DNA of 64,000 nt from contig CM059432.1 of assembly GCA_030390025.1 (NCBI GenBank), positions 18,850,001-18,914,000 of the forward strand. Direction: 5' to 3'. The stretch comes from Squalus acanthias (Eukaryota). Below, in pieces: positions 2,934 to 64,000 of the stretch. The notes under the pieces are model-generated. The model had not been told where the DNA came from, searched no databases, and was given only the letters and a program-made list of their open reading frames with translations. Each line of letters begins with the position of its first letter. Positions within the stretch are counted from its first letter, which is position 1. The translations under genes and the position numbers were made by a program.

Positions 2934-3230
2934 CTGGAGGTGAATTTCCGCAGGGATTCTCCCGATCGGTCCACGGTAACTTTGACTTTTGTGCTGGGTT
3001 CCAGGGGGTTTCCGTGGCTCTCCTGGCAAAATGTCGGCACACAATTGGGAGAATCCTCCCAGAAATTCACCCCCTTTATGTCCTGGCAAAGATCATTTTA
3101 CGAACCAGCTGACTAAGCGCCCAATATGGCGGGCAGGAAGCACGCGCCCATTTCTGGCTGGAAGTGCACCGCCCGCCATCTTAGATAAGGTGGTTGCACT
3201 GGTGTCAGGAGTGTACGTCTGGAAAATTCA
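2934..3230. repeat. Degenerate GC-rich MITE-like remnants
   Basis: GAATTTCC...GAAATTCACCCC ends; the CCAATATGGCGGGC...CCCGCCAT segment is shared with 1915-1975. Confidence 0.4.
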
Positions 3231-4206
3231 AAGATGGAAATAATGTATTTAAATTATAGCCACCAGGCTAAAACCAACGGCTCTGTGCATTTTTATGAAC
3301 CTCATTTCCATCAGGTACTGTCGGGCCTGGTTGTTGCTGACAAGAAAGCAGACAAGAATCGTATGCCAGCTGTCATCTCTGCCATCCTCTTATAATCTGA
3401 GCCTTCTTTGCCAGTTCTGGGCAAAGATAAGGCATGGGCGGCAATCCGCAATATAATAGCAGATGAAAAGAGGAGTCGTCCTTTTTTCGGTACGGTTCTG
3501 CTTCTTTAAATAGCATCCGCTTTTTACTTAATGCTTCAGTTCCCCTTGTATAAAGAGAACATGGCCACAAAATTGTATTTTTATTTCCATTCTCCGTGCT
3601 TCAAAGGACAAATAGAAAATAACACTTGGCAATCATTCTGTGACCGTTCATGTATTATGAATGCAGGCATAAGTGACAAAAGCTTCAGCAGAAGATTTGC
3701 ATAACAAAGACATATAAATGCATATTACTTTACTACGTCTGCTTTACTGTAAAAATAATTAAACTGCAACACCATTGTAAGAACATTGGCAACATTGAAT
3801 TCTTTGTGTTCATCTCTAAAAGCTAGGAGTTTCATAATTGCAGTGGAAGGATTTGCATAACTGGTAAACATCCATCAAAGAAACAACCTGGAACTCTGAA
3901 ATGCAAACAGAAAATGTTGGAAGTGCACAATGAGAATGTCGGCATCTGAAAAGAGGAAAAACCAGGTTGACAAAAGGGCCCTATAATTTGCCTCATCTGT
4001 TGCGTCGGGAAAAAAACAAGTTAACTGGGTGGGCAGGGCTGGGAAATCAGTCGGCGACCCGTTACCCCAGCTCTCCGTCCCTTTTATGCGCTGTCTAACA
4101 TTCTGCCAGGAGCAGGAGCGGGTGCATTGTTATGTAACGCAAACGAGGGAAATATGTCTAAAAGGTATTTCCTGTCATTCGTGCCGTTAGCAATGTTGGT
4201 CACAAG

Positions 4207-23437: not shown

Positions 23438-23929
23438 TAGGTAAGAGGAGGGGTGGGGTCAATTAGGGACTGAAAAGGAGACATACGCATGGAGGCAGAG
23501 GGTATGGCTGAGGTACTAAACAAGTACTTTGCATCTGTCTTCACCAAGGAAGAAGATGCTGCCATAGACATAGTGAAGGAGGAGGTAGAGGAGATGCTGG
23601 ATGGGATAAAAATTGATAAAGACCAGGTACTAGAAAGGCTGGCTGTACTTAAAGTAGATAAGCCACCAGGACCAGATGGCATACCTCCTAGGATGCTGAG
23701 GGAATTGAAGGAAGAAATCATGGAGGTACTGGACATAATCTTCGAATCCTCCTTAGAAACAGGGGTGGAGCCAAAGGACTGGAAAATTGCAAATGTTACA
23801 CCCTTGATCAAAAAAGTGTGTAAAGATAAACCCAGCAACTATAGGCCAGTCAGTTTAACCTCGCTAATAAAAACAGAAAATGCTGGAAATACTCAGCAGG
23901 TCAGGCAGTATCTGTAGAGAGAGAAACAG

Positions 23930-23966
23930 AGTTAACGTTTCAGGTCGATGACCCTTCATCAGAACT
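23930..23966 (-). ncRNA. Minimal hammerhead ribozyme motif (uninterrupted)
   Basis: Minus strand AGTT-CTGATGA-AGGGTC(atc)GACCT-GAAA-CG-TT-AACT; helix I AGTT/AACT; palindromic AACGTT. Confidence 0.8.
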
Positions 23967-24696
23967 GGAAAAAGTTGGAGATGTAATAGGTCTTTAAGCA
24001 AGTGTAGGGTCAGGGAGAAGGGGGAAGGGAGGAAAGATCAAAAGGGAAGGTCTGTGATAGGATGGAAGGCAGGAGAGATAAAGAGAGAAAAGGGATGATG
24101 GTGCAAGGCAAAAGGAGATGGTAATGGGACAAGTTAAGAAACAAAAGATGAGTCTAGATGAAGTGTAAGTGGCAATGGCAGAATGATCAATAGTTGCCGT
24201 GTGAGAGAGAGAAAAAAAGGATAGGGGCCGAGGTTATGGTCTGAATTTGTTGAACTCGATGTTGAGTCCAGAAGGCTGTAAAGTACCTAATCGAAAGATG
24301 AGGTGCTGTTCCTCGAGCTTACATTGAGCTTCATTGGAACAGTGCAAGAGGCCGAGGGCGGTGAGGTCTGAGTGGGAGTGGAGCGGAGAATTAAAGTGAC
24401 AGGTGACCGGAAGCTCGGGGTCACCCTTATGGACTGAACGGATGTGTTCCGCAAAGTGGTTACCCAATCTGCGTTTGGTCTCCCCAATGTAGAGGAGACC
24501 GCATTTTGAGCAGCGAATACAGTATAATAAATTGCAAGAAGTACAAGTTAATTGCTGTTTCACCTGGAAGGAGTGTTTGGGGCCATGGACAGTGGGAAGG
24601 GAGGAGGTAAAATGGCATGTGTTGCATCTCCTGTGCTTGCACAGGACGGTGCCGGGCAAAGGGGAAGGGGTGTTGGGGGTGATAGAGGGGTAGATC

Positions 24697-26913
24697 TGTA
24701 AAGGAATGAGCCATACCTATTCAGAAAAATTCACCATCCTATGAACAGAATTCTGACATTATTAAAATATGACAAACTGGGTTTAAAAATCTAAAAGCCT
24801 CAACAACACAAAGCTGTAAATACAGGCTTCTGAGATAAGGGCCCAAAAATTCGGCCGTTCTCGGGTGAGTACTCAGTGCGTACTCACCCGTATTAATTCC
24901 CGAAGTGCCGGTTTCCTGCATGCACTGCGCATGCGCGGGAAACCGGCACTTCCGGTATGGCGAAGGGGGCGGTTCCTAGGTGAACCGCGTGCGCGGTAGA
25001 GGCTGTGCGCACGCAGCAAACTTAGATTTTTTTCAGGTTTCTACGCGAGGGTAAGTATGGAAGAAACTACGCTAGTAAAAGGAGGCGTAAGACCCCTTTT
25101 GAACAAGGTAAGTGGTTAATTAAGTATAATTTTAATTTTTTTTCAACATGTTTATCTTTTTTAGAGACTTTAAAGAAAGGTAAGTTTATTTTTATAACTT
25201 TTAAAAAGTATTTTAATTTTTTCAAAAATTTAAATTTTTGTTTAAAGTGGTTAATTTATTTAACTATAGTTATTTTATTAATGTGATGGGTTTTAAAAAA
25301 AAATTATTTGAGGTTTAGCTGTTCTTTTGGGGCCGATTTCAATTCACAGATTTGACAGGTCTCCTGTCAAATCTATGAATGAAAGATGGTCTGCTGCCAT
25401 TGGCTCTCCATGGCCCATGTGATCCCAGGGGTCGCATCGCACTAACTGCGCCCCTGGAACACGCAAGCACTGCGCGCCAGCACTAGGGAGAGGCCCAGGA
25501 CCCGAAGTTCCTGCGGGGGCAAACAAGAACGGCAGACGCGGTAGGTGATATCGCGCGCGATCTTTACCCCCGCAGCAAGCCTCCGAATCGAATTTCTAGG
25601 CCAAGATGAGTCACAAAGCTGTAAACACCATACAAGCTTTTGAAATGGGAATTGGTTGTAAATACTGAGACAATGGCCTCATTGAAACAGAGGGTTGGAG
25701 GTTCCAAGAAGTCTGCAGTTTGGAACCAACACAATAGCTATACCCAGTTTAAAGTGTTAAAAACTAACACTTCGAACAGAAACACAGAACATTAAAAAAC
25801 CATGTGTCTTTGTAAAAGTAACATCAAATGAAAGACAGGAAACATAAATTTGTAATACAACCAATTGAAGTAGCTAGGGAAACAATCAAGTACTCGGTTG
25901 AAGTGCTTTTGATTTACATATTGTAAAAGGTACAAACAGAAGACTTTGTAAATATTACATCAATAGATGCACCAAGCAATCACATTATTTATGTGTTGAA
26001 CTTGAAACACACAGAGACAGAAGTCTGCTTTCAACCAATTAAAGTGATTTAAGAATTCAATAGAAGACCTTCGTAAGAATAGCATCAAATAGATAAATCT
26101 GTTATAACCATTTTTTATGATAAGCTTTGAAACACCTACACAGCAGATATAATTATGCATGCAGCAGCTGAACTGACAGTAAGATTAGAAAGAAGTCAAC
26201 AGAAATATGACTAGAGATAATTAGCTTACATCAGCAGAAAACTTCAAAGGATATGCCACTGCAAAAAGAGGATAAAATATGGAACTTTCAGATAGGAAGT
26301 CAGAAGTCGCTGGAAGGGGCAAGCGATTCTCAACTTCAGAGGCAGGCTCTGTAAGTTTTTAACTCTTTGAGTCTCGGGGATCAAAAGGTACTTTTATTTG
26401 ATTTTGGTGGATATTCTGGATTAAGAATAAGTAGAAGTGTGGAAATGTAACGAAGTTAAGATTTGAGAATAAGGATCTCTGATAAGAAATGTAAGCTATT
26501 TGTATATTGAACTGTTAAAGTTGCGATTGAATCACCACCTGTTAGCTGCATGTTGGTTCTTTAATAAATCTATATATTTTTAGAATTGTCTCACAGAGTA
26601 TTTCTGTATCAAACTCGCAAACTCCATTTCTGTACACTCTTTTGTGAGGAGTTGCAGAATTCTGGGGGCTTTTCTGGACCCTCATAATATCCGGAAGGTT
26701 ACAGTCTAGTTAAACTTATTAAAAATGCTATCTGGAGGATGGTAACATCTTCAAGTCATTCCTTTCCTTTAGGGAGAGATAGTCTGGACCTTTAGACCCA
26801 ATTAAGCATCTCTAGGATTCGGCTATCTCAACTTTAGTTGAAGGTGAACGTCTGGGGAATACACCTGATCTGGGGTAGCCCGAAAAGGGCTAGGACTAGT
26901 AATTATCCCTTCA
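24697..26913. mobile_element. Putative long solo LTR (about 1.45 kb after removing the nested MITE)
   Basis: TGTAAAGG...CCCTTCA termini; flanks GATC/GACC; cleanly interrupts the Penelope ORF; AATAAA at about 26563. Confidence 0.55.
24840..25602. mobile_element. Harbinger-type MITE, family B, copy 2
   Basis: TIRs GGCCCAAAAATTCG / CGAATTTCTAGGCC; TSD AAG. Confidence 0.85.
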
Positions 26914-29822
26914 GACCAGGGTGTCGCAGAAGGAGCGTCCCTTCGAATGCTGAAAGGGGAGGTGAGGGGAAGATGTGTTTGGTGGTGGGATCACGCTGGA
27001 GGTGGCGGAAATGGCAGAGGATCATCCGTTGAATGTGGAGGCTGATGGGGTGAAAGATGAGGACAAGGGGAACTCTATCATGGTTCCGGGAGAGAGGGGA
27101 AGGGGTGAGAGCAGAAGTGCAGGAAATAGTACGGACACGGTCAAGGGCTGTGTCAACCACAGTAGAGGGCAATCCTCGGTTGAGGAAAAAGGAAGACATG
27201 TCGGAAGCACTAGTATGGAATGTGGCATCATCAGAGCAGATGCGGCGGAGACGGAGAAACTGTGAGAATGGAATAGAGTCCTTACAGGAAGCAGGGTGGG
27301 AGGAAGTGTAGTCCAGGTAGCTGTGAGAGTCAGTGGTCTTATAGTGAATGTTTGTCAATAGTCTATCCCCAGAGATGGAGACAGAGAAGTCGAGGAAGGA
27401 AAGGGAAGAGTCGGAGATGGACCATGTGAAGGTGAGGGAAGGGTGGAAATAGGAAGCAAAGTGAATGAAATTTTCTAGTTCAGGGCGAGAGCAGCAACCG
27501 GCACTGATACAGTCATCAATGTACCGGAAAAAGAGGTGAGGGAGGGGACCTGAGTAGGACTGGAACAAAGAATGTTCCACATATCCCACGAAAAGGCAGG
27601 CACAGCTAGGACACATGCAGGTTCCCATAGCAACACCTTTAATTTGGAGAAAGTGAGTGGAGTCAAAGGAGAAGTTGTTCAGCCAGAGAAACAATAATCA
27701 GGGACAAAATTAACAGTCACTTGGACAAGTGTGGGTTGATTAAGGAAAGCCAGCATGGATTTGTTAAAGACAAACCATGTTTAACCAACTTTAATTTAAT
27801 TTTTTGATGAAGTAAAAGAGAGGTTTGATGAGGGCATTGGATTTCCAAAAGGCATTCGACAAATTGCCACATAATATGCTTGCTGGCAAAGTTGAAGCCC
27901 ATGGAATAAAAGGGACAGTGGCAGCATGGATACGATATTGGCTAAGTGACTGGAAACAGAGAGTCGTGGTGAACGGTTCTTTTTCGGACTGGAGGAAGGT
28001 ATACAGGGGTCAGTTCGAGGACCACTGCTTTTCTTGATTATATATTAATGACTTGGATGTGGGTGTACAGGGCACAATTTCAAAATTTGCAGGCAGATGG
28101 CACAAAACTTGGAAGTATAGTGAACAGTGAGGAAGATAGTGATAGACTTCAAGAGGACATAGATAGGCTGGTGGAATGGGCGGCTACGTGCCAGAAGAAA
28201 TTTAACGCAGAAAAGTGTGAAGTGATACATTTTGGTCGAAAGAATGAGAGAGGGAATATAAACTAAAGGGTATAATCCTAAAGGGGGTGCATGAACAGAG
28301 AGACCTAGGGGTATATGTGCACAAATCATTGAAGGTGGCAGGGCAGGATGAGAAAGAAGTTAAAAAAGCTTACGGGATCCTGGGCTTCATAAATAGAGGT
28401 ATAGAGTACAAAAGTGTGGAAATTATGATGAACCTGTATAAAACACTGGTTCGGCCTCAACTGGAGTATTGTGATCAATTCTGGGCACCGCACTTTAGGA
28501 AGGATGTGAAGGCCTTAGACAGAGTGCAGAAAAGATTTACGAGAATGATTCCAGGGATGAGGGACTTCAGTTACGTGGATAGATTGGAGAAGCTGGGGCT
28601 GTTCTCCTTAGAGCAGAGAAGATTGAGAGGAGATTTGATAAAGGTGTTCAAAATCATGAGGGGTCCGGACAGAGTAGATAGAGAGAAACTGTTCCCATTG
28701 GCAGAGGGGTCGAGAACCAGAGGACACAGATTTAAGGTGATTGGCAAAAGAACCAAAGGCGATGTAAGAAAAAACTTTTTTACGCAGCGAGTGGTTAGGA
28801 TCTGGAATGCACTGCCTGCGAGGGTGGTGGAGGCAGACTCAATCGTGGCTTTCAAAAGGGAGTTGGATAACTACCTGAAAAAAAAATTGCACGGCTACGG
28901 GGAAAGGGTGGGTGAGTGTGACTAGCTGAGGTGCTCTTGCAGAGAGCTGGCACGGGCTCGATGGGCCGAATGGCCTTCTTCCGTGCTGTAACCATTCTAT
29001 GATTCTATGATTATGGCATGTACTGTGTATTAAATGGTGTCATGAGAAAACATTTATATTAAATTAATGAATTGATTACAATAGCTGAGTTATGTGGCTC
29101 TCACTTCTTGATGCTGTGTGGCCGTAATGAGAAAAAAAAATGAATAAGGAAGAAGAAAAAGGTCTTCTCCAAAAGAAAGGGAGAAAATAATTTGAAAACA
29201 ATTACAACGGACATCATAACGGTCTGTGAAATTCAGAATATCCCGACTGCATGCAACTGCCACTGAAGCTTAACACTGCAGAATTTCACACATGGAATAC
29301 TTCAGATAGCACTCATTATGGGGGCTCACTTAGAGTGGATGATATGCAAGTCAATGTACTGCTGTAAAGGCAGAGACCGAAGAAGAGCTAGATAACAAAT
29401 AATGATAAAAAATGACCTTTAGGGTCCACTGACTACCTTTACTGTGAACAGGAATCATGAAAGTAAAGTGGACAATCAATCTTTTTACTTTATAAGGGGC
29501 TGCTTTAAAAAACTCTTCCCCTCACAGCACCGTCTTTATTGTATCTTGACAGCAGTGTCGCGTAACTAAATTGGTGAATTAGCTGAAAAAGCGAAGAGCA
29601 AGACAGAAAGAGACGTCAGTGGGCTTTAAAGCTTTGCAGTCACCCCAAGCAATAAAGTAGAAAGTTCAGCAAAAGGTTCCAATTATCCAAGGAGCTATTC
29701 ATTATGGCCATGGGCATCTGGCTTTTTGGTGTCGTGATTTTGCAATTTGAGGTGCATAACGTTTTATTTAAAGCTGAAGTATTACTTACATTCTGTCCTC
29801 CAAAAGAATGAAAAGTGAAATT

Positions 29823-52974: not shown

Positions 52975-53692
52975 TGCCTCCTATCACAGGCTGCTGGTTA
53001 CCATTTACACCTCCTCTGGAACAATCTTCTGTTTCTTTACTTGTCCCATTAACACCCTCTTTTGCCTAGCACCATCACCCCTATCATCATTTAATCACTC
53101 CTGCCCTCCACCCTATCACAGACCTTCCCTTTTGTTCTTTCCTTCCCCACACCCCCTTCCCCCCTTTACCCTGGCTCTGCTCTCGCTTAAAAAACTATTA
53201 ATCTCTAACATCGTCCAGTTCTGATGAAAGGTCATCGACCTGAAACATTAAGGGTTGGATTTTGAATGACCCATGGAGTCGGGTTTGGAGGCATGTGGGG
53301 GGTTAAATTTGCGGGGTTGGGGTTTCCGACCCCATCCCGACTCCATCCCGCCTCCACGCAATTTTGACAAAATCAGTCGCGGGGTTCCCGACTCTCTCCC
53401 GCCTCTTGAAGGCAGAAGAGGCCATTAAAGCCCTTAACAAGCCCTAAATTGGGTCTGTAATGCTATTTTGAAACGTTATAGCTAGTTTAACCCTTTTCTG
53501 ACGTGAAGCACGCCTGGTGTGAAACACTCCAGTGAAACCTGGCGGGAGCACAAATGGATAGCTAACTATCGGCTGCAAGTCCACTATTACAACGGAGATG
53601 TGATGAAGGTAGTAGTATTAGGTGTGAAAGTCGTCTCTGATACTGCTACATTCAATGTCATGGCATTTGGTGTAACAGGACTTGGATGCAAA

Positions 53693-53727
<35 letters not shown>

Positions 53728-54110
53728 TATTCATTTGCATCCAGGTCCACTCACATCAGAAGCAATGCAGACAGGTCCTCTCTCACCAGTAGCCAGACAA
53801 TCTCTGAGAGCAGGCAGTCAGCAATGATGACATCATCAGAGGCGGGTTTCAGACTGAAACCACTAATTAGTTCATGGGTTCCCACATGCTGCAACTCAAT
53901 TGCCCAATTAAGTGAAAATTGCATCAGGCATCCACATTAATCTGGAGTCGGGGGGGGGGGGAAACACGAAATGCGGATTACACGACCCCAACCCGACCCC
54001 AAGACAAAATCCAGCCCTAACTGTTTCTCTCGCTACAGTTGCTGCCTGAATTTTCCAGCATTTGCTGATTTTATTTCAGATTTCCAGCAGCTGCAGTATT
54101 TTTGCTTCTG
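52975..54110 (+). mobile_element. Penelope 3'UTR/pLTR with its hammerhead split by a Harbinger MITE
   Basis: Homologous to the reverse complement of 23864-24180; core CTGATGA..GAAA at 53221-53245; resumes at 54018. Confidence 0.8.
53252..54017. mobile_element. Harbinger-type MITE
   Basis: TIRs GGGTTGGATTTTG / CAAAATCCAGCCC; canonical TAA TSD. Confidence 0.85.
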
Positions 54111-55036
54111 TTGAAATGTTAAAGATGTTGTGCAACAGCTACACAATGACATTCTATGGTCTCTGCAGACTCTCTGAAGTTTAGCTCGACAGTCAAGTTG
54201 CTAACTACTCTTGTCTGCAACCATTCAGCCTTCCCTCCACAGTTCAGATATGGTGCCAGTGACAATTCCTTAGAGTTCTCTGATGATGAGATCGGGAGGG
54301 TTGTGCTGACAACCTTGAGTGGCTCTGTGACTTTCCATTTCAAGCAAGATGCATCACCATCAAATATTCCGAGCTCAGCCATAGATGCAAAAGCAAATTC
54401 CCTTTATTCATTCCCAGCAATTTACCTCAACCTCAGAAACATTCACAAACAACTTCACCAATGCAAAACGCAGTCCATTTCCCAGAGCAGATATCCTGCA
54501 GCCTTGAGTGAGAATATAACAGTGCAGAATGAGGAAGAGTTTGTGCCCATTAAGAATGGGATTGTTTTTTGCTTTTTGTACCTTCACATCTTGGAAAATA
54601 GCATGAGGTAGTGGAAGGGTTCACAGGCTGATTAACAGTCTGTTAGGCTGCAACATCTTTATGCCAGCTGATAGGGTGGTCAGTCCTATATGGTGGGAGG
54701 ATTTTATGGGCTCCCACAACCCTCACAATGAGGGGGACCACCCACACCCTCACCCATGCATATCCCTCTGGATGTCAACCCAGAGTTTAGAGCCGGAGCT
54801 CCAATCTCCGCATACCAGGACTGTCTGGAGCGGGGTTTGAACGCTGCAACCTTCTGACTCAAAGGTGGGAATGCTACCATGAAGCCCAGAACTGAACTGA
54901 GTCTGCTCAAACTCATTTCGCCCACAGCCCATACAATCATTGTATGGAGAAAACTTCTTTTGCATCAGTCTGGACTGGATTTGAGGCTGCCTTGAAATTG
55001 GGCTTTTCAACCATTGGTGTACAACCTCATATAAAA

Positions 55037-56682
55037 TGTTCTGATGAAAGATCACCGACCTGAAACGTTTGGCTGGATTTTACCAACCTCGGTGGGTCCG
55101 TGGCGGGTGACGTCGGTGGCGGGTCCCGGCCTCGCTGCTGTCTCCAGCCTGCTGTGTAGAATGATTTTCCCCTGATTGGGCTTGTTAAGCCCGCCCAGCG
55201 CGTTTCCCAGCCAATTGAAGGAAGCGGGTCTGATGACATCATTTGATGACGTGTCATCAGCCGGTTTCCTTAAAGAGACCATGCACATTGCACAGGAAGA
55301 CACAAGCAGGGATGTCATCAAGAGGACCAGGCTGCAGTGGTGCAAACCTTTCAATGATCTCAGTAGATCACGAAACGTTACTGCAAAGCCACACTCAACC
55401 TCATCCTGCTGTGCCTCTCATCACATCCCCATCACTCTGCCTTCCCTACCCTACTCCCGCATATCCTTACTCACACCAACTTACCTTGCACCTCCACCCA
55501 TCCCTCTCTATCTACATTATCACTTCCCCATCTCACTAGCCACCCCTCACACTCACCCACATCCTAGTCCAATCATACCAACTAACAACACACAAGGGTA
55601 GGCACATGGGTGTTTTAGCCAATGTTCATGTGAAGTTTCTGTTAATGTACTGTCAAACATTGAAATCTTTATTTTCAACACTTTGCCTTCTTGGACAGAT
55701 GTGTGTGCACCTTTGGAAGTGGCTTAGTGAGTTGCAGTGAATTGTGAGACATACCGGTACCCCCCGCAATGCTGACGAGTGTGAAAGGAATGGCTTGGGC
55801 ATTGTAGGGATGCTTTATGGTGTTGGTGTGGGGTGGTGCCAACCTGGCGCATCATGTGACAGCCAGGGTGTGCAGTGTCAAGTGAAGTAAATGTGGCCAT
55901 GGTGAGGCCATTGCTGGCGTCCCGGGCAGCAATGTGGTCGGGTGCTGATGCCCTGTGTCCTGTGCAGCATCAGGTGATTGCGGAGAAGGTTGGTGTTGTT
56001 GGTGCTGCTGGTGTGCCTGGTGATGCTGGTCGTGGTGGGATGCTGAGGACCAAGATGAAATCGTTTCAAGGGCACCGATGCTGATGGAATAGATGGCAGG
56101 TGAAGTAGAGATGACAGAAGCGATCTGTCAATGGTGCGAGAGGTAATGAGGTCAGACTACATGGAGGCTTGTGTAAAGACTTGCAGCATTCTGAATCTGT
56201 AGTGGAAATGCAGTTTAGAGAAGCTAGTGCCTAAGGGAACATGTCTCCATCAGCTGGGAGCTTTGACTTGACATTTGAAGCTGTCAACTCATCAGCTGAA
56301 ACAATGGGAAGTGACCTATCGCCTCAGCTTCACTGACGAGGTCTAGGCACAGCGGGATACCAGTGGGCGACCTGTCAGAATCAAAAAGCTGGGGTAAAAG
56401 CAATGTTAAGTGGCTGTAAAAAGGGCACTAAAGATTTCAATTGCCTCCCCGCCGCTGCGTGTCCGGTCTGCTCAGCGCTGGTTGACCCGATATTCGGTAA
56501 AGGCGCTGTCAAAATAAAACAATTTCCCACCTGACCCGCCACTGATCGTGCCCGCTGATCTCCTGGAAAACTCTGCCCGTTAACTCTGTTCCTCTCTCCG
56601 CAGATGCTGCCTGAGTTGCTGAGTATTTCCAGCATTTTCTGTTTTAATTTCAGATTTCCAGCATCTGCAGTAATTTGCTTTT
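55037..56682 (+). mobile_element. Penelope pLTR with its hammerhead split by a Harbinger element
   Basis: GTT-CTGATGA...CCT-GAAACGTT up to 55069; resumes GTTAACTCTGTT at 56579. Confidence 0.8.
55070..56578 (+). mobile_element. Internally deleted Harbinger element with Myb/SANT remnant
   Basis: Ends TGGCTGGATTTTACC / GGAAAACTCTGCCC; TSD GTT; peptide IAQEDTSRDVIKRTRLQWCKPFNDL resembles the Myb/SANT RTxxQCRKRFNDL motif. Confidence 0.75.
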
Positions 56683-57459
56683 GTATAAAATGTCTTTGTC
56701 TGCCATTTTAATGGAAACATTAACTTTCCTTTCAACGGGTTATTAGCTCTGTTAAAATAGTGAATATTTGAAGAGCCAAAGCTCAAGACATAGGTTTAAT
56801 TCCAAAAGGAAAAGGCAGAATGTTGATAAGCACACTACAATTAGGTATAACTGTACCTCTGCCAGAGGTAAACATGCAGCTCTGCACACACAGCAACTGT
56901 TCAAGGGAACTATTTCTTTGAGATATGTACAGGCTTTGACTGATACCATAATGCTCCAACAACTAAGCTATGAAAGAACGTAAAATGTCAAATGTACTTT
57001 TTAGCTTATTAAACAAATAAAAAGAAGCAATTACCACATGTGGTTTAATCAGAGTTTCCAGATTGCCTTTGTTCAGTGCCAATTAAATGCTTTGCAGAAC
57101 AGTCAAGTGCTCGGAAAAGACTGAAAATTCATTTCATTATTCTGGTTTTCTGACGATTGAGTGAAAAGATCAGATAAAGAAAAATATTAACATGAAGAGA
57201 AAAAAACACTGATAAACCGATGATGGGAAGCACATTGTGCTCAGGCAAATGGAACTTAATTTTCCGTCGAGGATTTTTTTGTTGCTTCATGTGCAACCTT
57301 TTAATAAATTAATTTGAACACAGGCATCAGCAGACCCTGGCAGAAAGGATTTGCTGAAGAATCCAGCATGCAGTGTACTTACAGGGAGCTGGCTGCTCGT
57401 GCACCATGAGTGGGCTGTAAGCATTAAGCTGGAACCATGTTGTGAAATGAAATTGAAAG

Positions 57460-57856
57460 ACTTGTGTTTATACAGCACCTTATCATGTCGCTCAGAAACT
57501 CCCCAAGCGCCTCGCACACAATAGAATACATTGACGCCTGTTATGTAGGCAACTGCAGTAGCCATTTTTCATATAGCAAATTCCAACAAAACAGCAATGA
57601 AATGATTGAACAGCTAATCTGTTTTGGCCGAGAGAGGAATGTCGGCCAGCACACAAGGAAAACCTCCATGATCTTCTTTTCAGTAGTGTCACGGGATCCA
57701 GGTGAACATTTAGATATGGCCTAGTTTTGACACATTTAACAGCACCAGCGCCTCCCTCAATGCAGCACTTCTTCAGTAACACACTGGAACCTCAGCTTAC
57801 ATTAAGATCTGGAGTGGGGCTTGAACCCCAGTCTTCTGACTCAGAGACAAGTGCTG
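57460..57856 (-). mobile_element. Degenerate tRNA-derived SINE
   Basis: Diverged match to the SINE body and head (GGAGTGGGGCTTGAACCC). Confidence 0.6.
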
Positions 57857-57928
57857 AGGCAATCTGGTACTGTTTCGTCACTATGAGGGTCATGAAATAT
57901 TTGGCATCAATGTGTGTGTGTTTATAGT

Positions 57929-58393
57929 GTCAGCTGTGGCTCAGTGGGTAGCACTCTCGCCTCTGAGGCAGAAGGTTGTGGGTTCAAGTCCCACTCCAGG
58001 GACTTGAGCACATAAAGCTAGGCTGACACTCCAGTGTAGTACTGAGGGAGTGCTGCACTGTCGGAGGTGCCGTCTTTTGGATGAAACGTTAAACCGAGGC
58101 CCCGTCTGCTCTCTCAGGTGGATGTAAAAGATCCCAAGGCACTATTTCGAAGAAGAGCAGGGGAGTTCTTCCTGATGTCCTGGCCAATATTTATCCCTCA
58201 ACCAACATAACAAAAACAGATTATCTGGTCATTATCACATTGCTGTTTGTGGGAGCTTGCTGTGCGCAAATTGGCTGCCGTGTTTCCCACATTACAACAG
58301 TGACTACACTTCAAAAGTACTTCATTGGCTGTAAAGCGCTTTGAGACGTCCGGTGGTCGTGAAAGGCGCTATATAAATGCAAGTCTTTCTTTT
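57929..58393 (+). mobile_element. tRNA-derived Deu-type SINE, full length
   Basis: A-box TGGCTCAGTGG, B-box GGTTCAAGTCC, conserved central domain, TATATAAATGCAAGTCTTTCTTT tail. Confidence 0.9.
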
Positions 58394-59079
58394 ATTCTTA
58401 TTTGAAATAATAACATGGAAATAGAAATCCCATTTAGCTCATTTCTTAGAATAAACCACATACCATTTGCACTTATGTGAACCCGCCCCAATATACTGTA
58501 CCACTGATCTGAGATCAGTAGCTGCAGAATCAATTCACACCTGGGTTGTATTACAGGCTGCCCCAGGCTGCAAGTCGTGCTTTTAATACTAAGAGAGATC
58601 TGTGCAATCAAAGCTTTGCTCAGGGCTGACAATTTTTGAAAGTTTGGGAGCATGAGTATGAGTGCCAACACTTAAAAACATTACAAAGAGAATTCAGTTG
58701 AGAACATACCCAGGCTGTCCAGTGGCCTGCCTGTATACCTTTTAAATCTCGCTGGACAGCACAGTGGAGTTATACTCCATCTGATATCAAGTCCAATTAG
58801 TGTGAGACAGCCTCCTGAGGGCTCATAACATTTACTGGAGTTGGATTGGAACCTGAGTACAGATTCAAACTGACAGTTTTGTATAACTGCAAAGTGGAAA
58901 ACAGTTTCAAGCGCTCCGCTTCCTTCTTGGAGCGCAATCGGCAGCATAAGGGGCGGAGACACCAGCAGCGATGCGCACTGGCACTGCCGCGTTCAAAGGC
59001 TCCTTCCCTCCCTTAAAGGGAAGGACAAAAATGAGAAGTCGCACAACACCAGGTTATAGTCCAACAGATTTATTTAATT

Positions 59080-59117
59080 TTACAAGCTTTCGGAGCTGTC
59101 GCTCCTTCCTCAGGTAA
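59080..59117 (-). ncRNA. Minimal hammerhead ribozyme motif
   Basis: Reverse complement of 60171-60208. Confidence 0.7.
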
Positions 59118-60170
59118 GTTAGCAGTGAGAGAATCTCCCAGAATTCACAATTTAAACACAGACAAAATCTATTCAAATCTTTCCCTACATCAAAGACACA
59201 CTAAGAGCACAGCCAAGACAATGAGATGTGTCCCAGGGGGTCCAACGTGTCAAACCACCTGCTGGCTGCATATCCTGTCAATTTGTGTTGGTTCTTGTGT
59301 TAGTCTTTTTAAAAAAAAACACCTGGGAAGACCGGCCATGATGTCAAGTCACGTTCTGTATCGTGACATGAACCCGATATCGCGATTAAGGCCATCCTCA
59401 TGAGTGCGGAACTTGGCTATCAGTTTCTGCTCTATGATTTTGCGCTGTCGTGTATCCCGAAGGCCGCCTTGGAGAACGCTTACCCGCAGATCCGAGGCTG
59501 AATGCCCCTGGCTGCTGAAGTGTTCCCCGACTAGGAGGGAACCCTCCTGCCTGGCGATTGTTGCATGGTGTCCGTTCATATGTTGTCTCAGTGTCTGCAT
59601 GGTCTCGCCGATGTACCATGCTCTGGAGCATCCTTTACTGCAACGTATCAGGTAGACAACGTTGGCCGAGTCACATGAGTATGTACCATGCAGACACTGA
59701 GACAACGTATGAACGGACACCGCGCAACAATCGCCAGGCAGGAGGGTTCCCTCCCAGTCGGGGAACACTTCAGCAGCCAGGGGCATTCAGCCTCGGATCT
59801 GCGGGTAAGCGTTCTCCAAGGCGGCCTTCGGGATACACGACAGCGCAAAATCATAGAGCAGAAACTGATAGCCAAGTTCCGCACTCATGAGGATGGCCTC
59901 AATCGCGATATCGGGTTCATGTCACGATACAGAACGTGACTTGACATCATGGCCGGTCTTCCCAGGTGTTTTTTTTTAAAAAGACTAACACAAGAACCAA
60001 CACAAATTGACAGGATATGCAGCCAGCAGGTGGTTTGACACGTTGGACCCCCTGGGACACATCTCATTGTCTTGGCTGTGCTCTTAGTGTGTCTTTGATG
60101 TAGGGAAAGATTTGAATAGATTTTGTCTGTGTTTAAATTGTGAATTCTGGGAGATTCTCTCACTGCTAAC

Positions 60171-60208
60171 TTACCTGAGGAAGGAGCGACAGCTCCGAAA
60201 GCTTGTAA
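60171..60208 (+). ncRNA. Minimal hammerhead ribozyme motif
   Basis: TTAC-CTGAGGA-A-GGAGC(gaca)GCTCC-GAAA-GC-TT-GTAA. Confidence 0.7.
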
Positions 60209-61781
60209 AATTAAATAAATCTGTTGGACTATAACCTGGTGTTGTGCGACTTCTCATTTTTGTCCACCCCAGTCCAACGCCGGCATCTCCACATCATGAC
60301 CTCTATTAAAGGGAAGGGCCATCGCTTCAGGCTCTGCAATAGAAAAAGTACCTACCTGGACCACCAAGGCAGCCGCGATCCCGCGCGATCAGCCCGGCAC
60401 TCAAGCAGAGCGAGCGATCGCGGGCACGAACCTGCGAAAAAACTGGAACAGGAAAGGTCATTTTTTTTTTTTACTTACTTCGCCTTTAATCATCGCCCCC
60501 GAAGCGGCCGGCCGCTCGATGCGCGCCTCCTGCAGCTGTCAGTGTTTTCGACCGGCGCTGCTGCAGGGGGCGGAAGTCAATTTCGGGTCCGGGGCGCTAC
60601 CGGGGCGATGCGCACGCCGATGACATCACGATCTCCGGGCGAAGGATATCGGGACGCAACGCCGTAGCACCACCGCAAAACTCCTGCCAAATATGGCGGG
60701 AGTCGATGTCAGCGCCGCGCCCGGTCGCAGAGCCATTTGCGCCCCGTTAGCGCCCCCCGGGAGGCGCAGAGGCACCCAATTTCACCCCTTTAAAAATTAG
60801 CACTCCAAACGGGGCGACAGTGAATTCTCTTCCTGTATTTCAAAAAGCCACTTTTACTGACATTTTTTGATTGCCACCATATACCTACTAAACAAAATCC
60901 CTGTCACTGCCTTGTTATTAATAGAAACAGCACATATTACATTTCGTGTTTAACCAACATCATGAAGCGAAAAACAATAACATTAGGATTGAAGTTAAAG
61001 AATCCTGTGCTGTGGTAAAATAACCATGATGAAAGTATACCAATTTCTGTCCATTAAAGTGCAGAGATGCTTCATCTGTCACATGTGACTCAAGCAAATG
61101 TGTAACAAGTAAAACAAGCCTCTTCCAATTGCATACTCAATCAGATCCTGGGACTGGTGCCAGATAGTTCGCTAACTTGCAATGGTTGTGCATTTTTACA
61201 GGAGCATTTGTGAGTTAAGCTCTTTAGATTTATCATTGCTCAAAGAGCAACAGCCACGACTCGGCGTGTGTTTATGTGTGAGGTGTGGGGTGGGGGAGGT
61301 TCGCAGGTACAGTTTGTCAGATTTGAACCCCACCTGAGTCTTTCAAAGATCCTTCAGAAGTCTGGGAGAACTTTCTCACCCTGCAAAGAGATCTACCTGA
61401 GGGAATCCTATCACTGGGGAGTCTTTTAAATGGGCAATCTGTCAGGAAAGGTGACCGTTAAACAAAATCTGTGCATTTTTTTTGCGTGTGTATATCAAGT
61501 ACATTTTATGAATGTGTGCTGATGTGTGGTTCCAGCAGGTGAGACTCTGCATAGGGAGTGCACATTCATAAGATTTACCCTGTAGAATCCATTAGCATGT
61601 GTGATTTTGCTTTTATGTGGATATGCAAGGGGTCATTTTCCAATTTGCGTTTACAATTTATTACAAAGTATTTACAGCACAAAAACAGGCCGTTCAGCCC
61701 AACTGGTCCCTGCCGGTGTTTATGCTCCACACCAGCCTCCTCCCACCACTCTTCATCTAAACCCATCAACGTATCCTTCTA

Positions 61782-61943
61782 GAGAGAGAAAGAGAGTTAA
61801 CGTTTCAGGTCGATGACGAAAGGTCATCGACCTGAAACGTTAACTCTCTTTCTCTCTCCACGGATGCTGCCTGGCCTGCTGAGTTTTTCCAGCGTTTTCT
61901 GTTGTTATTTCAGATTTCCAGCATCCGCAGTATTTTGCTATCG
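61782..61943 (+). mobile_element. Miniature Penelope pLTR insertion with 5' inversion, inside an old CR1 tail
   Basis: 36-bp perfect inverted repeat (61782-817 / 61823-858); TSD AACGTATCCTTCTA at 61768-81 and 61944-57. Confidence 0.85.
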
Positions 61944-62239
61944 AACGTATCCTTCTATTCCATTCTCCCTCTTGTACTTATCTAGCTTCCGCTTCTGGGG
62001 CCATTCTCACCTGCCAGGAACACACATTAGACATTCTGGCACACGTTGCAAGATTTTCACACCATCACTTTCAAAGTTTAGAATAATCGCAGGCTCTCAG
62101 CAGATGAGGCTGCCCACTGGGAGTGCGAGGTTGGTAAATTAAATCCGTACTGTTGAATAAAATAGTGCATTTATGTTAAAAATGGAAATCTAAAATATGT
62201 GCATTTTCAGTACTTACTTGGTATATAGTATTACAAAAG

Positions 62240-62345
62240 GAAAATACTGCTGATGCTTGAAATCTGAAACAAAAATAAAAACAGAAAATGCCTGAAATAC
62301 TCAGCAGGTCGGGCAGCATCTGTGGAGAGCAAAACAAAGTTAATG
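62240..62345 (-). mobile_element. Penelope pLTR 3' part, cut at hammerhead helix III
   Basis: Matches 23869-23937 up to AGTTAATG, then switches to a Harbinger TIR. Confidence 0.75.
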
Positions 62346-62862
62346 GGAGTGAAATTGGGTATCGCCCTGTTTGGGCCGCTAACCTTTGAAATTTTGAAAA
62401 TTTAGTGCCAGGCGCTAAGGATTCTGAACTTCTGCTAAATTGAGTGTTAACGCCCCAGGAAGGAAGTGGGGCGCTAAATCAAGCGCTAATGACCTCAGTG
62501 GGGCGCTACAGGGGCACTACCAGCAGAACGCTAATGAATTTCAGGTGCAATGCATTCAGCAATGATCCTTCACACTGGTTCCTTCCAGCTCTTAAAGGGA
62601 AGGCTGCATCATCGTCCAAATGCTCATTTTCAGCATTGCTGGCTTTGAGACGACCTGCGAGCAAGTGAATCCCCTGATGGCTATGGCTGTTCCCACTCCC
62701 AGGGAGAGAACTCGTTGGTTCCCAGACATTGCATTGGAGGCATTGATGGCTGGAGTGGAGCGAAGGAGGGCAATGCTTGTCCCGGCCACTGGAAGGAGGC
62801 CATCACCTCAGGTGTTCAGGGCAATGTGGAGGGAAGTGGCCCAGGAAGTCTCAGCCAGTAGT
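62346..62862 (+). mobile_element. Harbinger element left end with Myb/SANT-like ORF
   Basis: TIR-like GGAGTGAAATTGGGT (compare 60775-88); peptide RTRWFPDIALEALMAGVERRR...MWREVAQEVSA. Confidence 0.75.
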
Positions 62863-64000
62863 CATAGAATCATAGAATGGTTACAGCACGGAAGAAGACC
62901 ATTTGGCCCATCGATCCCGTGCCAGCTCTCTGCAAGAGCACTTCAGCTAGTCCCACTCCCCCGCCCCTTCCCCGTAGTCCTGCAAATTTCTTTCCTTCAG
63001 GTACTTATCCAATTCCCTTTTGAAAGCCGTGATTGAATCTGCCTCCACCACCCTTTCAGGCAGTGCATTCCAGATCCTAACCATTCGCTGCGTAAAAAGT
63101 TTCTTTTGCCAATCACCTTAAATCTGTTTCCTCTGGTTCTCGACCCTTCTGCCAATGGGAACAGTTTCTCTCTATCTTCTCTGTCTAGACCCCTCATGAT
63201 TTTGAACACCTCTATCAAATTTTCTCTCAATCTTCTCTGTTCCGAGGAGAACAACCCCGGCTTCTCCAGTCTATCAACGTAACTGAAGTCCCTCATTCCT
63301 GGAATCATTCTCGTAAATCTTTTCTGCATCCTCTCTAAGACCTTCACATCCTTCCTAAAGTGTGGTACCCAGAATTGGACACAGTACTCCAGTTGGGGCC
63401 GAACCAGTGTTTTATACAGGTTCATCATAATTTCCACACTTTTGTACTCTATACCTCTATTTATGAAGCCCAAGATCACTTAAGTCTTTTTAACTGCTTT
63501 CTCAACCTGCCCTGCCACCTTCAATGATTTGTGTACACATACCCCCAGTTCTCTCTGTTCGTGCACCCCTTTCAGGGTTGTACCATTTAGTTTATATGTC
63601 CTCTCCTCATTCTTTCTACCAAAATGTATCACTTCTCACTTTTCTGCATTAAATTTCATCTGCCACATGTCTGCCCATTTCGGCAGCCTGTCTATGTCAA
63701 CCTAAAGTCTAACACTCTCCTCCTCATTGTTCACTATACTTCCAAGTTTTGTGTCATCTGCAAATTTTGAAATTGTGCCCTGTACACCCACGTCCAAGTC
63801 ATTAATATATATCAAGAAAAGCAGTGGTCCTAGAACCGACCCCTAGGGAACACCACTGTATACCTTCCTCCAATCTGAAAAACAATCGTTCACCACTACT
63901 CTCTGTTTCCTATCACTTAGCCAATTTCGTATCCATGCAGCCACTGTCCCTTTTATTCCACGGGCTTCAACTTTGCTGGCGAGCCTATTATGTCGAAAGC
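62863..64000 (-). mobile_element. CR1 3' part, runs out of the window
   Basis: RT C-terminus 62997-63479; CATAGAAT tail; same subfamily as 27690-29011. Confidence 0.92.

What the first reader, a model, noticed from the sequence alone, without database searches (positions are those of the whole stretch)
53217..62360. Three different Harbinger elements inserted at the hammerhead cleavage site of Penelope pLTRs
Seen: the uninterrupted pLTR ribozyme reads CTGATGA..GAAACGTT/AAC (23930-66), with predicted cleavage after GUU. Three other copies are split within these 6 nt (CGTTAA) by Harbinger-type elements with different ends and interiors. 53252-54017 has TSD TAA spanning the cut. 55070-56578 has TSD GTT, the cleavage triplet itself. 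The element starting at 62346 has flank CAT (from CGT), and its far end is not visible. A weak possible fourth case is at about 3960-3990. Different offsets and elements imply independent events. Inference: either these DNA transposons target the overlapping palindromes AACGTT/GTTAAC of the ribozyme, or copies with a destroyed ribozyme are preferentially retained. I know of no description of such a hotspot.
Basis: partly seen in the sequence, partly recalled or inferred. Interest (0 to 1): 0.88.

Follow-up and report, generated by a model that had tools for sequence, protein, structure and literature searches.

The report
Transposon hot spot in Penelope hammerhead
Cut-and-paste DNA transposons of the Harbinger superfamily do land repeatedly at one exact spot inside the small hammerhead ribozyme of a Penelope-like retroelement, but mainly because that spot resembles their usual DNA target, and only about 1 copy in 100 is hit.

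Summary
In the window, two Penelope tail copies are split by TIR elements with 3-bp target duplications (TAA at 53252-54017, GTT at 55070-56578). A third breaks at the same place (element from 62345; its far end was not found).

Whole-genome pattern counts show a sharp, real hot spot. Of 509 junctions between the tail's left half and a GGGCTGGATTTT end, 93 of the 100 listed lie exactly 3 nt after GAAAC. At least 15 different element ends follow the shared terminus, so these are independent events.

- A target logo built from insertions elsewhere (YARANAC|WWW|GTNTYTR) ranks this GTT position first in 620 nt. It also predicts the TAA offset of the first element.
- A ribozyme-dead tail variant (GAGAC|ATG) is hit more often: 5 of 100 listed, against about 1%.
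- A LINE site is occupied in 25 of 100 listed copies.
- About 69,000 tail copies exist and 100 of 100 sampled were intact.

This is therefore ordinary target-site selectivity of PHIS/Harbinger transposons, which happens to coincide with the ribozyme core. One caveat: the additive logo under-predicts the site by about 2.5-6 fold and over-predicts other sites of similar score.

The parts
23841..24010 (-). Intact copy of the Penelope-like element tail (pLTR) with the minimal hammerhead motif CTGATGA-A-GGGTC ATC GACCT-GAAAC-GTT/AAC (motif at about 23930-23966)
   Evidence: By inspection the motif fits the min-HHR traits quoted from PMC4209133. No Rfam hammerhead hit.
24234..24716 (-). ORF with a CxxC...YIGET GIY-YIG-like endonuclease motif directly upstream of the tail; a further RT-like ORF (..FRYIDD..) lies at 26903-27697 (-)
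   Evidence: ORFs. GIY-YIG E 0.0053, below Pfam's cut-off; the RT-like ORF has no Pfam hit.
53182..53251 (+). Left half of a tail copy, ending ...CTGAAACATTAA; TSD TAA at 53249-53251
53252..54017 (+). Non-autonomous 766-bp TIR element (family B; consensus ends GGGCTGGATTTTG / CAAAATCCAGCCC)
   Evidence: 4282 first-look candidates, 40 scored at 92-100% identity, 39 over positions 1-766; 3-bp TSD identical on both sides in 23 of 29 other copies.
54018..54075 (+). Second TAA copy (54018-20) and the right half of the same tail copy (CTGTTTCTC..., 2 bp shorter than the usual AACTCTGTTTC)
   Evidence: The logo's best position in this copy's own reconstructed context is this TAA (6.04 bits).
55038..55069 (+). 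Left half of a tail copy, ending GAAACGTT; TSD GTT at 55067-69
55070..56578 (+). Non-autonomous TIR element (family C). Its first base is T where relatives match from position 2. Imperfect TIR TGGCTGGATTTTACC / GGAAAACTCTGCCC. About 200 bp shorter than relatives near position 213.
   Evidence: 79 matches, outer parts 2-214 and 1435-1509 found beside the inner part in other copies; ends of this type (…ACCAACCTCGG and close variants) directly after GAAACGTT in about 19 of 100 listed.
56579..56649 (+). Second GTT copy (56579-81) and the right half of the tail
61780..61909 (+). Tail copy intact at the site, preceded by an inverted copy of its hammerhead part (fold-back)
62274..62344 (-). Right half of a tail copy ending ...AGTTAAT. 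AAT at 62342-44 derives from AAC, which is GTT on the tail's strand.
62345..62862 (+). 5' part of a Harbinger element (family E; TIR GGGGGTGAAATTGGG, here GGGAG...) with the start of a Myb-like ORF
   Evidence: 3437 candidates, 40 scored; other copies continue past 62862. Myb_DNA-bind_4, E 0.0085, below cut-off. DDE_Tnp_4, E 2.7e-35, about 3-3.9 kb into another copy (L061+L064).
62863..64000 (.). Nested insert of an abundant LINE-derived repeat that interrupts element E. E resumes at 64792, beyond the window.
   Evidence: 16485 candidates..

Best explanation
An abundant Penelope-like retroelement tail carries a minimal, dimer-type hammerhead motif. About 69,000 copies have an intact left half. 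A large, diverse group of PHIS/Harbinger-type cut-and-paste transposons makes 3-bp target duplications. Their termini are GGG(C/G)..ATTTT, many families are non-autonomous, and at least one family carries a DDE_Tnp_4 transposase and a Myb-like ORF.

These transposons choose targets by DNA sequence: roughly Y-A-R-A-N-A-C | W-W-W | G-T-N-T-Y-T-R. The ribozyme's invariant GAAAC, preceded by C-T, is a good left half-site. The staggered cut therefore falls on the next three bases, GTT, which happen to be the ribozyme's cleavage triplet. The right flank AACTCTG gives a partial second half-site.

The result is a sharp nested-insertion hot spot at 'the cleavage site'. It is a by-product of the transposase's target preference and does not depend on ribozyme function. 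About 1% of copies are hit. Other repeats that fit the logo better are hit far more often.

Shown: the position, independence, frequency, logo and variant effects. Inferred: that the transposase reads this logo directly, and that insertion inactivates the ribozyme by removing the 3' strand of helix I.
For: Hot spot:
- CGACCTGA-N(0-15)-GGGCTGGATTTT gives 509 matches, control 0. Of 100 listed, 93 have exactly 6 nt between, so the TSD is the 3 nt after GAAAC.
- With GACCTGAAACGTT as anchor there are 164 matches, and 99 of 100 listed have no gap.
- Right junctions: 947 matches, 81 of 100 listed at the matching distance, about 77 of them with tail sequence.
- Only 19 matches, 2 of them tail-like, in the 15 nt after TTCTGATG.

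Independence:
- At least 15 different sequences follow the shared 12-nt terminus.
- Many other termini (GGGCTCGATTTT, GGGCCAGAAATT, GGGGGAAATTTT and more) also sit at the site.
- Both ends of family B occur against the left half.

Logo:
- 58 half-sites of 29 family-B copies elsewhere give A at -4 in 55, C at -1 in 43, A at -2 in 36, and A/T in the TSD. 29 family-E half-sites agree.
- This matrix ranks the GTT position first of about 590 positions around copy A: 7.27 bits, 99.9th percentile of the window, 95-137 times the mean. It still ranks first after leaving out recurrent sites.
- In the first element's own mutated context the top position is TAA, where it sits.

Ribozyme not needed:
- In the tail variant CGACCTGAGACATGAAC (287 matches), 5 of 100 listed are occupied. 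The main form is about 0.8-1.2% occupied: 605 GGG-starts among 68,975.
- The matrix predicts a 9-13 fold difference.
- ATT instead of GTT is found in 21 of 64 occupied but 10 of 100 empty listed copies.

Not special:
- 0 of 100 listed ends out of 58,159 lie at this site. Several other repeat sites recur.
- The LINE site AAACAAATAC|TTT|GTGTCTG is occupied in 25 of 100 listed, out of 2,809.
- Three of 29 family-B copies sit at that same TTT.

Superfamily: DDE_Tnp_4 at E 2.7e-35.

Precedent: Harbinger3_DR integrates into the palindromic AAACACCWGGTCTTT (passage read in PMC3016246). PHIS groups differ in TSD and flanking bases (passages in PMC4482050).
Against: - The additive matrix does not reproduce magnitudes. 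My arithmetic gives about 130 expected left junctions against about 330 observed (2.5 fold).
- For one family (ends GTSAATGGRG: 3,233 ends, 21 of 100 listed) the excess is about 6 fold.
- A control site of similar score in another repeat (7.95 bits) has 7 occupied against 14,546 empty, or 0.05%.
- The TCT and TGT positions of the same tail (6.2-6.3 bits) hold 1 of 100 each, against 93 for GTT. The site is therefore 10 fold or more hotter than sites the matrix scores alike.
- The matrix rests on 58 half-sites of one family and assumes independent positions.
- Repeat age, and thus exposure time, is not controlled except within the tail.
- G as first TSD base is rare elsewhere (1 of 58), yet GTT is the main TSD here.
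- Families B and C are called Harbinger-type by analogy only (TSD length, termini, shared logo). No transposase was linked to them.
Confidence: 0.77

Rival explanations
1. The hammerhead site has an extra attraction beyond the linear logo. One possibility is that the nested palindromes AACGTT/GTTAAC give a DNA shape or flexibility that these transposases favour. Another is that some families have adapted to use this very abundant, conserved motif as a landing pad.
For: - The GTT site exceeds the additive matrix by 2.5-6 fold.
- Sites of similar score are 14-90 fold less occupied: the control site at 0.05%, and TCT and TGT at 1 of 100 each.
- GTT is used despite the rarity of G at the first TSD base elsewhere.
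Against: - Variants that destroy the palindromes (GAGAC|ATG, ATT) are hit more often, not less (against 29).
- The excess lies within the error expected from a 58-site matrix with pseudocounts.
- No family examined is devoted to the site: 1 of 100 listed ends, 0 of 29 family-B copies, and 1 further family-E junction in the genome.
Confidence: 0.14
2. Insertions are not specially targeted. Instead, tail copies whose ribozyme was destroyed by an insertion are kept more often than intact ones.
For: None beyond the coincidence with the cleavage site. An insert at GTT would separate the core from helix I (inference).
Against: - Retention cannot give a single-base-sharp peak. Insertions anywhere in the core or helix II would also kill the ribozyme, yet only 2 tail-like junctions lie in the 15 nt after TTCTGATG, against about 470 at GTT.
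- About 99% of copies are intact at the site.
- An already dead variant is hit more often.
Confidence: 0.03
3. The composites descend from one or a few ancestral tail-plus-insert units that were then amplified.
For: Some transposon ends do sit in amplified composites elsewhere: 17 of 100 listed ends share one identical 23-nt flank.
Against: - At least 15 different element ends and several different termini occupy the site.
- Both orientations of family B occur.
- TSD variants match on both sides of the same insert, for example ATT/ATT and ATG/ATG pairs at neighbouring coordinates.
- The three window cases involve unrelated elements.
Confidence: 0.02

Closest known systems
Target-site-selective PIF/Harbinger (PHIS) transposons, e.g. 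Harbinger3_DR with its palindromic AAACACCWGGTCTTT target (PMC3016246, passage read), and PHIS groups defined by TSD and flanking bases such as NuwaII C|TNA|G (PMC4482050, passages read)
   Same: DDE_Tnp_4 transposase and a second Myb-like ORF in family E. 3-bp TSD. Extended palindromic target with ..ACAC-like half-sites next to the TSD. C before and G after the TSD.
   Different: The TSD is loosely A/T-rich (CAT, ACT, ATA, TTA, AAA, GTT and others), not TWA, CWG or TNA. The consensus half-site is YARANAC. There are many non-autonomous families with GGGCTGGATTTT ends. A hot spot inside a ribozyme motif was not found described in my searches.
Minimal dimer-type hammerhead motifs in the terminal repeats of metazoan Penelope-like elements (Cervera and de la Pena 2014, PMC4209133, passages read)
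   Same: CUGAUGA core. [quoted passage not shown] 5-bp helix II. GAAA. No helix III loop, with palindromic 15.2-16.2 (C-G). Location in the tail after an RT / GIY-YIG ORF. Tens of thousands of genomic copies.
   Different: The 10.1-11.1 pair is A-U or G-U here, where the paper stresses G-C. No cleavage data. No Rfam hammerhead model matches.
Recurrent nested insertion of one transposon family at a fixed site of another repeat (general phenomenon; recalled, not looked up)
   Same: Many independent insertions at the same base of a dispersed repeat, driven by the target preference of the incoming element. The same transposons do it even more strongly in LINE-derived repeats of this genome.
   Different: Here the site coincides with a catalytic RNA motif.

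Membership tests
PIF/Harbinger (PHIS superfamily) | DDE transposase of the DDE_Tnp_4 / Plant_tran type | tested here: met
   Family E only. ORF in L064:1074-2009(-) hits DDE_Tnp_4 at E 2.7e-35, 121.8 bits. It lies about 3-3.9 kb from the 5' end of that copy. The copy's 3' end was not found, so linkage is by contiguity.
PIF/Harbinger (PHIS superfamily) | Second ORF with a Myb/SANT-like DNA-binding domain | tested here: inconclusive
   Myb_DNA-bind_4 at E 0.0085, 16.9 bits, below the cut-off of 27. The window's own 61-aa piece gave no hit.
PIF/Harbinger (PHIS superfamily) | 3-bp target site duplication | tested here: met
   23 of 29 family-B copies have identical 3-bp flanks. Window cases show TAA and GTT.
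PIF/Harbinger group in the strict sense | TSD of composition TWA | tested here: not met
   The TSDs of the 23 matching pairs include CAT, ACT, ATA, AGA, TTC, CTG, TAT, AAA, ATG, TTG, ATT, TCT, AAT and AGT. Only TTA (3) fits TWA. Superfamily membership stands; the strict group does not.
PIF/Harbinger (PHIS superfamily) | Terminal inverted repeats | tested here: met
   B has GGGCTGGATTTTG / CAAAATCCAGCCC. C is imperfect. The far end of E was not found.
Penelope-like element min-hammerhead | Conserved core CUGAUGA ... [quoted passage not shown] | tested here: met
   By inspection of copies A-D against the traits listed in PMC4209133.
Penelope-like element min-hammerhead | Lies in the terminal repeat of an element encoding RT and a GIY-YIG endonuclease | tested here: inconclusive
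   The ORF directly upstream of copy A has a GIY-YIG hit at E 0.0053, below cut-off. The RT-like ORF (FRYIDD) has no Pfam hit. Earlier notes on this genome read these tails the same way.
Penelope-like element min-hammerhead | Self-cleavage (as a dimer) | not testable with these tools
   No Rfam hammerhead model matches, even at E up to 10. The paper reports low in vitro activity for such motifs.

The most novel reading that the evidence does not exclude
The hammerhead core of the Penelope tail is a preferred landing pad beyond what a linear target logo predicts. It is 10 fold or more hotter than sites of equal logo score. This could be because the nested palindromes around the cleavage triplet give a favoured DNA shape. 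It could also be because some Harbinger-type families have adapted to a motif that stays conserved and abundant through the retroelement's own needs. In that case one mobile element would systematically disarm the ribozyme of another.
Probability: 0.12. Interest if true: 0.55.

Novelty: new member of a known kind. Interest (0 to 1): 0.3.

Why it matters
The result shows that a striking coincidence, DNA transposons landing exactly on a ribozyme's cleavage triplet, can arise from an ordinary sequence preference. The ribozyme's invariant GAAAC doubles as a transposase half-site, and the 3-bp stagger falls on GUU.

It has three practical uses:
- It gives a target logo for a large, poorly described group of PHIS elements with non-TWA duplications.
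- It flags several repeat-internal hot spots that repeat annotators will otherwise see as composite families.
- It gives a rough figure for how many hammerhead copies are disrupted this way, about 1%.

It does not open a new mechanism unless the residual excess over the logo proves real.

Tried and rejected
- Laying the whole genome in the script box was not possible. I used whole-genome pattern counts instead.
The flanks of family C were therefore read only through pattern listings.
Each pattern therefore covers only 15 nt of the tail, and the part right of +24 was not surveyed.
- Rfam gave no hammerhead hit in the whole window at gathering scores, nor in copy A at E up to 10. The ribozyme reading rests on inspection.
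- Pfam gave nothing for the RT-like ORF.
- The search for the far end of element E failed. There is no inverted terminus in 29 other copies within 2 kb, none in 5.5 kb of one copy, and no terminus and no missing left tail half up to 20 kb past the window.
- The 'fourth case' at 3960-3990 could not be substantiated.
- The AACTCTGT anchor gave 97 matches, 72 of them directly adjacent. That 8-mer also belongs to another repeat's hot spot (..TATAACTC|TAT), so these were not counted as tail insertions.
- The additive matrix was tried as a quantitative predictor and found unreliable at the 10-fold level.
- Literature searches for a described Harbinger / hammerhead or Penelope hot spot found none. 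This covers open-access full text only.
- Earlier-findings look-up by words found nothing.


Full report
WHAT IS IN THE WINDOW

BLAST of the intact tail copy (reverse complement of 23841-24010) against the window finds five copies:
- A: 23841-24010 (-), intact.
- B: 53182-53251 / 54021-54075 (+), split.
- C: 55038-55069 / 56578-56649 (+), split.
- D: 61780-61909 (+), intact at the site, with an inverted duplicate of its hammerhead part.
- E: 62274-62343 (-), which stops at reference position 76.

Reading the sequence gives the following.
- Copy B is split by 53252-54017 (GGGTTGGATTTTG...CAAAATCCAGCCC) with TAA on both sides.
- Copy C is split by 55070-56578 with GTT on both sides.
- Copy E ends ...AGTTAAT and is followed by GGGAGTGAAATTGGG.

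The tail itself follows an ORF with a GIY-YIG-like motif (24234-24716, Pfam E 0.0053, below cut-off) and an RT-like ORF (26903-27697, no Pfam hit). This fits a Penelope-like element. Two earlier notes on this genome read these tails the same way.

By inspection the motif CUGAUGA-A-(A/G)GGUC AUC GACCU-GAAAC-GUU/AAC has several traits that Cervera and de la Pena list for PLE min-hammerheads:
- the core;
- no helix III loop;
- palindromic 15.2-16.2.

These come from passages of PMC4209133 read. Two caveats apply. The 10.1-11.1 pair here is A-U or G-U rather than G-C. And no Rfam hammerhead model matches.

THE THREE INSERTED ELEMENTS

Family B:
- It is a 766-bp non-autonomous family: 4282 first-look candidates, 40 scored, 39 of them over positions 1-766.
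- In 29 other copies the flanks are 3-bp duplications, identical on both sides in 23.
- The duplications have many different sequences.

Family C:
- The inner 213-1435 and the outer 2-214 and 1435-1509 are found together at other loci, about 200 bp further apart. C is therefore one family, and the window copy has a deletion.

Family E:
- The unit continues past 62862 in all other copies listed. The window copy is interrupted there by an abundant LINE-derived repeat and resumes at 64792-65804. It then abuts another family-C copy.
- 26 of 29 other copies have a G before GGGGTG, so the terminus has five G. The window flank is then AAT, derived from AAC, which is TSD GTT on the tail's strand.
- One other genomic junction, CCTGAAATGTT|GGGGGTGAAATTGG, shows the same thing.
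- About 3-3.9 kb into one family-E copy lies a DDE_Tnp_4 ORF (E 2.7e-35). The first ORF has a weak Myb_DNA-bind_4 hit (E 0.0085).
- The far end of E was not found.

The three elements share no similarity apart from one 42-nt match.

IS THE HOT SPOT REAL?

The window's genome (3.7 Gb) can be searched by exact pattern with whole counts.
- CGACCTGA, 0-15 nt, GGGCTGGATTTT: 509 matches, 0 for the reversed control. Of the 100 listed, 93 have exactly 6 nt between, so the duplicated triplet directly follows GAAAC. The other gaps are 8 (TAA, 2 cases), 12 (TCT, 1), 14 (TGT, 1), and 5, 7 and 9 (1 each).
- With the stricter left anchor: 164 matches, 99 of 100 listed without a gap.
- The right junction, AAAATCCAGCCC, 0-15 nt, TCTGTTTC: 947 matches, 81 of 100 listed at the matching distance, about 77 with tail sequence.
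- In the 15 nt after TTCTGATG there are 19 matches in all, 2 of them tail-like.

The breakpoints are therefore not spread evenly.

After the shared 12-nt terminus at least 15 different sequences follow (212 matches). Many other termini also sit at the site (605 matches of ...AAAYRTT+GGG). Both ends of family B are seen against the left half. These are many independent events, not one amplified composite.

HOW OFTEN?

The left half CGACCTGAAAYRTT occurs 68,975 times. All 100 listed copies continue with the intact right half. Junctions with GGG-starting elements number 605. A last-letter filter removes roughly a quarter, so occupancy is about 1%.

The window's three broken copies of five are far above this.

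WHY THERE?

From the 29 family-B copies elsewhere I built a half-site matrix of 58 half-sites:
- position -7: C or T;
- position -6: A in 32;
- position -5: G in 31 or A in 19;
- position -4: A in 55;
- position -2: A in 36;
- position -1: C in 43;
- TSD: mostly A or T.

The 29 family-E left flanks agree.

Scanning 620 nt around copy A, the top position is the GTT triplet: 7.27 bits, 99.9th percentile of all window positions, 95-137 times the mean likelihood. Next come TCT at +6 and TGT at +8. GTT remains first when recurrent sites are left out.

Copy B has ATT and a 2-bp deletion. In its own reconstructed context the top position is TAA (6.04 bits), exactly where its insert sits.

The ribozyme's GAAAC, preceded by CT, is the left half-site. 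The TSD is the next three bases. That these are the cleavage triplet follows from the hammerhead's own geometry, in which cleavage comes three nucleotides after GAAAC.

DOES THE RIBOZYME MATTER?

- A tail subfamily reads GAGAC ATG AAC. Its core and cleavage triplet are spoiled and the palindromes are gone. It has 287 matches, and 5 of the 100 listed are occupied. That is about 6 times the main form's rate for GGGCT starts. The matrix predicts 9-13 times.
- ATT in place of GTT breaks the C-G of the dimer helix. It makes up 21 of 64 occupied but 10 of 100 empty listed copies. Several inserts have ATT on both sides, so ATT preceded insertion.

Targeting follows the DNA logo, not ribozyme integrity and not the AACGTT/GTTAAC symmetry.

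IS IT SPECIAL?

Among 100 listed of 58,159 GGGCTGGATTTT ends, none lies at the hammerhead site. Several other repeat-internal sites recur, each fitting the logo, and 17 ends share one identical flank. The LINE site AAACAAATAC|TTT|GTGTCTG has 2,809 matches, and 25 of the 100 listed are occupied. Three of the 29 family-B copies sit there, in both orientations. The hammerhead site is a minor hot spot among many.

WHERE THE SIMPLE ACCOUNT FALLS SHORT

My rough expectation combines three figures:
- about 29,000 insertions per side;
- 68,975 sites;
- a weighted likelihood ratio of about 240, over 3.71 Gb.

It gives about 130 left junctions. About 330 are observed (64 of 100 listed have AAAYRTT), which is 2.5 fold more. 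For the GTSAATGGRG family (3,233 ends; 21 of 100 listed) the excess is about 6 fold.

In the other direction, the matrix over-predicts sites of similar score:
- A control site scoring 7.95 bits in another repeat has 7 occupied against 14,546 empty.
- The TCT and TGT positions of the same tail have 1 of 100 each.

The logo therefore explains the place and the rank, but the size only to within an order of magnitude. A matrix from 58 half-sites with independent positions can be off by that much, but a real extra preference cannot be excluded.

COMPARISON WITH WHAT IS KNOWN

- Extended palindromic targets are known for this superfamily. Harbinger3_DR integrates into AAACACCWGGTCTTT (PMC3016246, passage).
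- PHIS groups are distinguished by TSD composition and flanking bases (PMC4482050, passages).
- The elements here belong to the superfamily: DDE_Tnp_4, 3-bp TSD, GGG termini. They do not have the TWA duplication of PIF/Harbinger in the strict sense.
- I found no paper describing a Harbinger hot spot in a hammerhead or Penelope tail (open-access full text only).

VERDICT

It is a sharp, independent, genome-wide nested-insertion hot spot. The best explanation is ordinary target-site selectivity that happens to match the ribozyme core. About 1% of copies are affected, ribozyme function plays no role, and hotter spots exist elsewhere. Interest is modest.

Noticed in passing
window 61780-61909; also about 12.9-13.2 kb past the window end (locus L003, near 2975-3170): Head-to-head (fold-back) pairs of the Penelope tail. 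In the window pair the inversion point lies in the loop of hammerhead helix II (...GTCGATGAC GAAA GGTCATCGAC...). The second pair turns just upstream of the CTGATGA core (ref 44-49). Two such pairs lie within 16 kb.
   Followed up: no
genome-wide; seen in L012, L020 and L021, and in the listings: A LINE-derived repeat site, AAACAAATAC|TTT|GTGTCTGTC, is a far stronger hot spot for the same transposons: 25 of 100 listed copies are occupied. Other recurrent sites include ..TAGAGRC|ATA|GAGTACAAAAG.
   Followed up: partly
genome-wide, listing: 17 of 100 listed GGGCTGGATTTT ends share one identical 23-nt flank (ACTTATGTAGTGATCTTATCTTA). The terminus there is probably part of a larger amplified unit, and some copies lie about 4.2 kb apart in tandem. 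A second flank, CTATATCCCTTTGCAGACTCTTT, recurs 9 times without its expected partner flank in the list.
   Followed up: no
genome-wide: A tail subfamily of about 270 copies reads CGACCTGAGACATGAACTC. Its hammerhead core and cleavage triplet are both changed, so it is presumably ribozyme-dead yet still dispersed.
   Followed up: partly
window 53182-62360: Three of five tail copies in this window are broken at the site, against about 1% genome-wide. The three inserts are unrelated families lying within 10 kb. Whether this region is unusually rich in these transposons was not tested.
   Followed up: no
families B and E, loci L004-L063: These PHIS elements make 3-bp duplications of loose A/T-rich composition, flanked by C and G (..AC|WWW|GT..). 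They do not make the TWA of classical PIF/Harbinger. They may form a further TSD group of the superfamily.
   Followed up: partly
whole genome: Harbinger-type elements are very abundant here, with at least 58,159 exact GGGCTGGATTTT ends. Earlier notes call this a shark genome, which I did not check. A teleost survey reported no Harbinger elements in elephant shark and asked for other cartilaginous fishes to be examined (PMC9179366, passages).
   Followed up: no
about 1.8-2.8 kb past the window end (locus L003, near 1802-2808): Element E's body ends against a reverse-oriented copy of family C (positions 814-213 and 214-29). This is a nest of at least three transposons plus a LINE fragment behind the broken tail copy.
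   Followed up: partly
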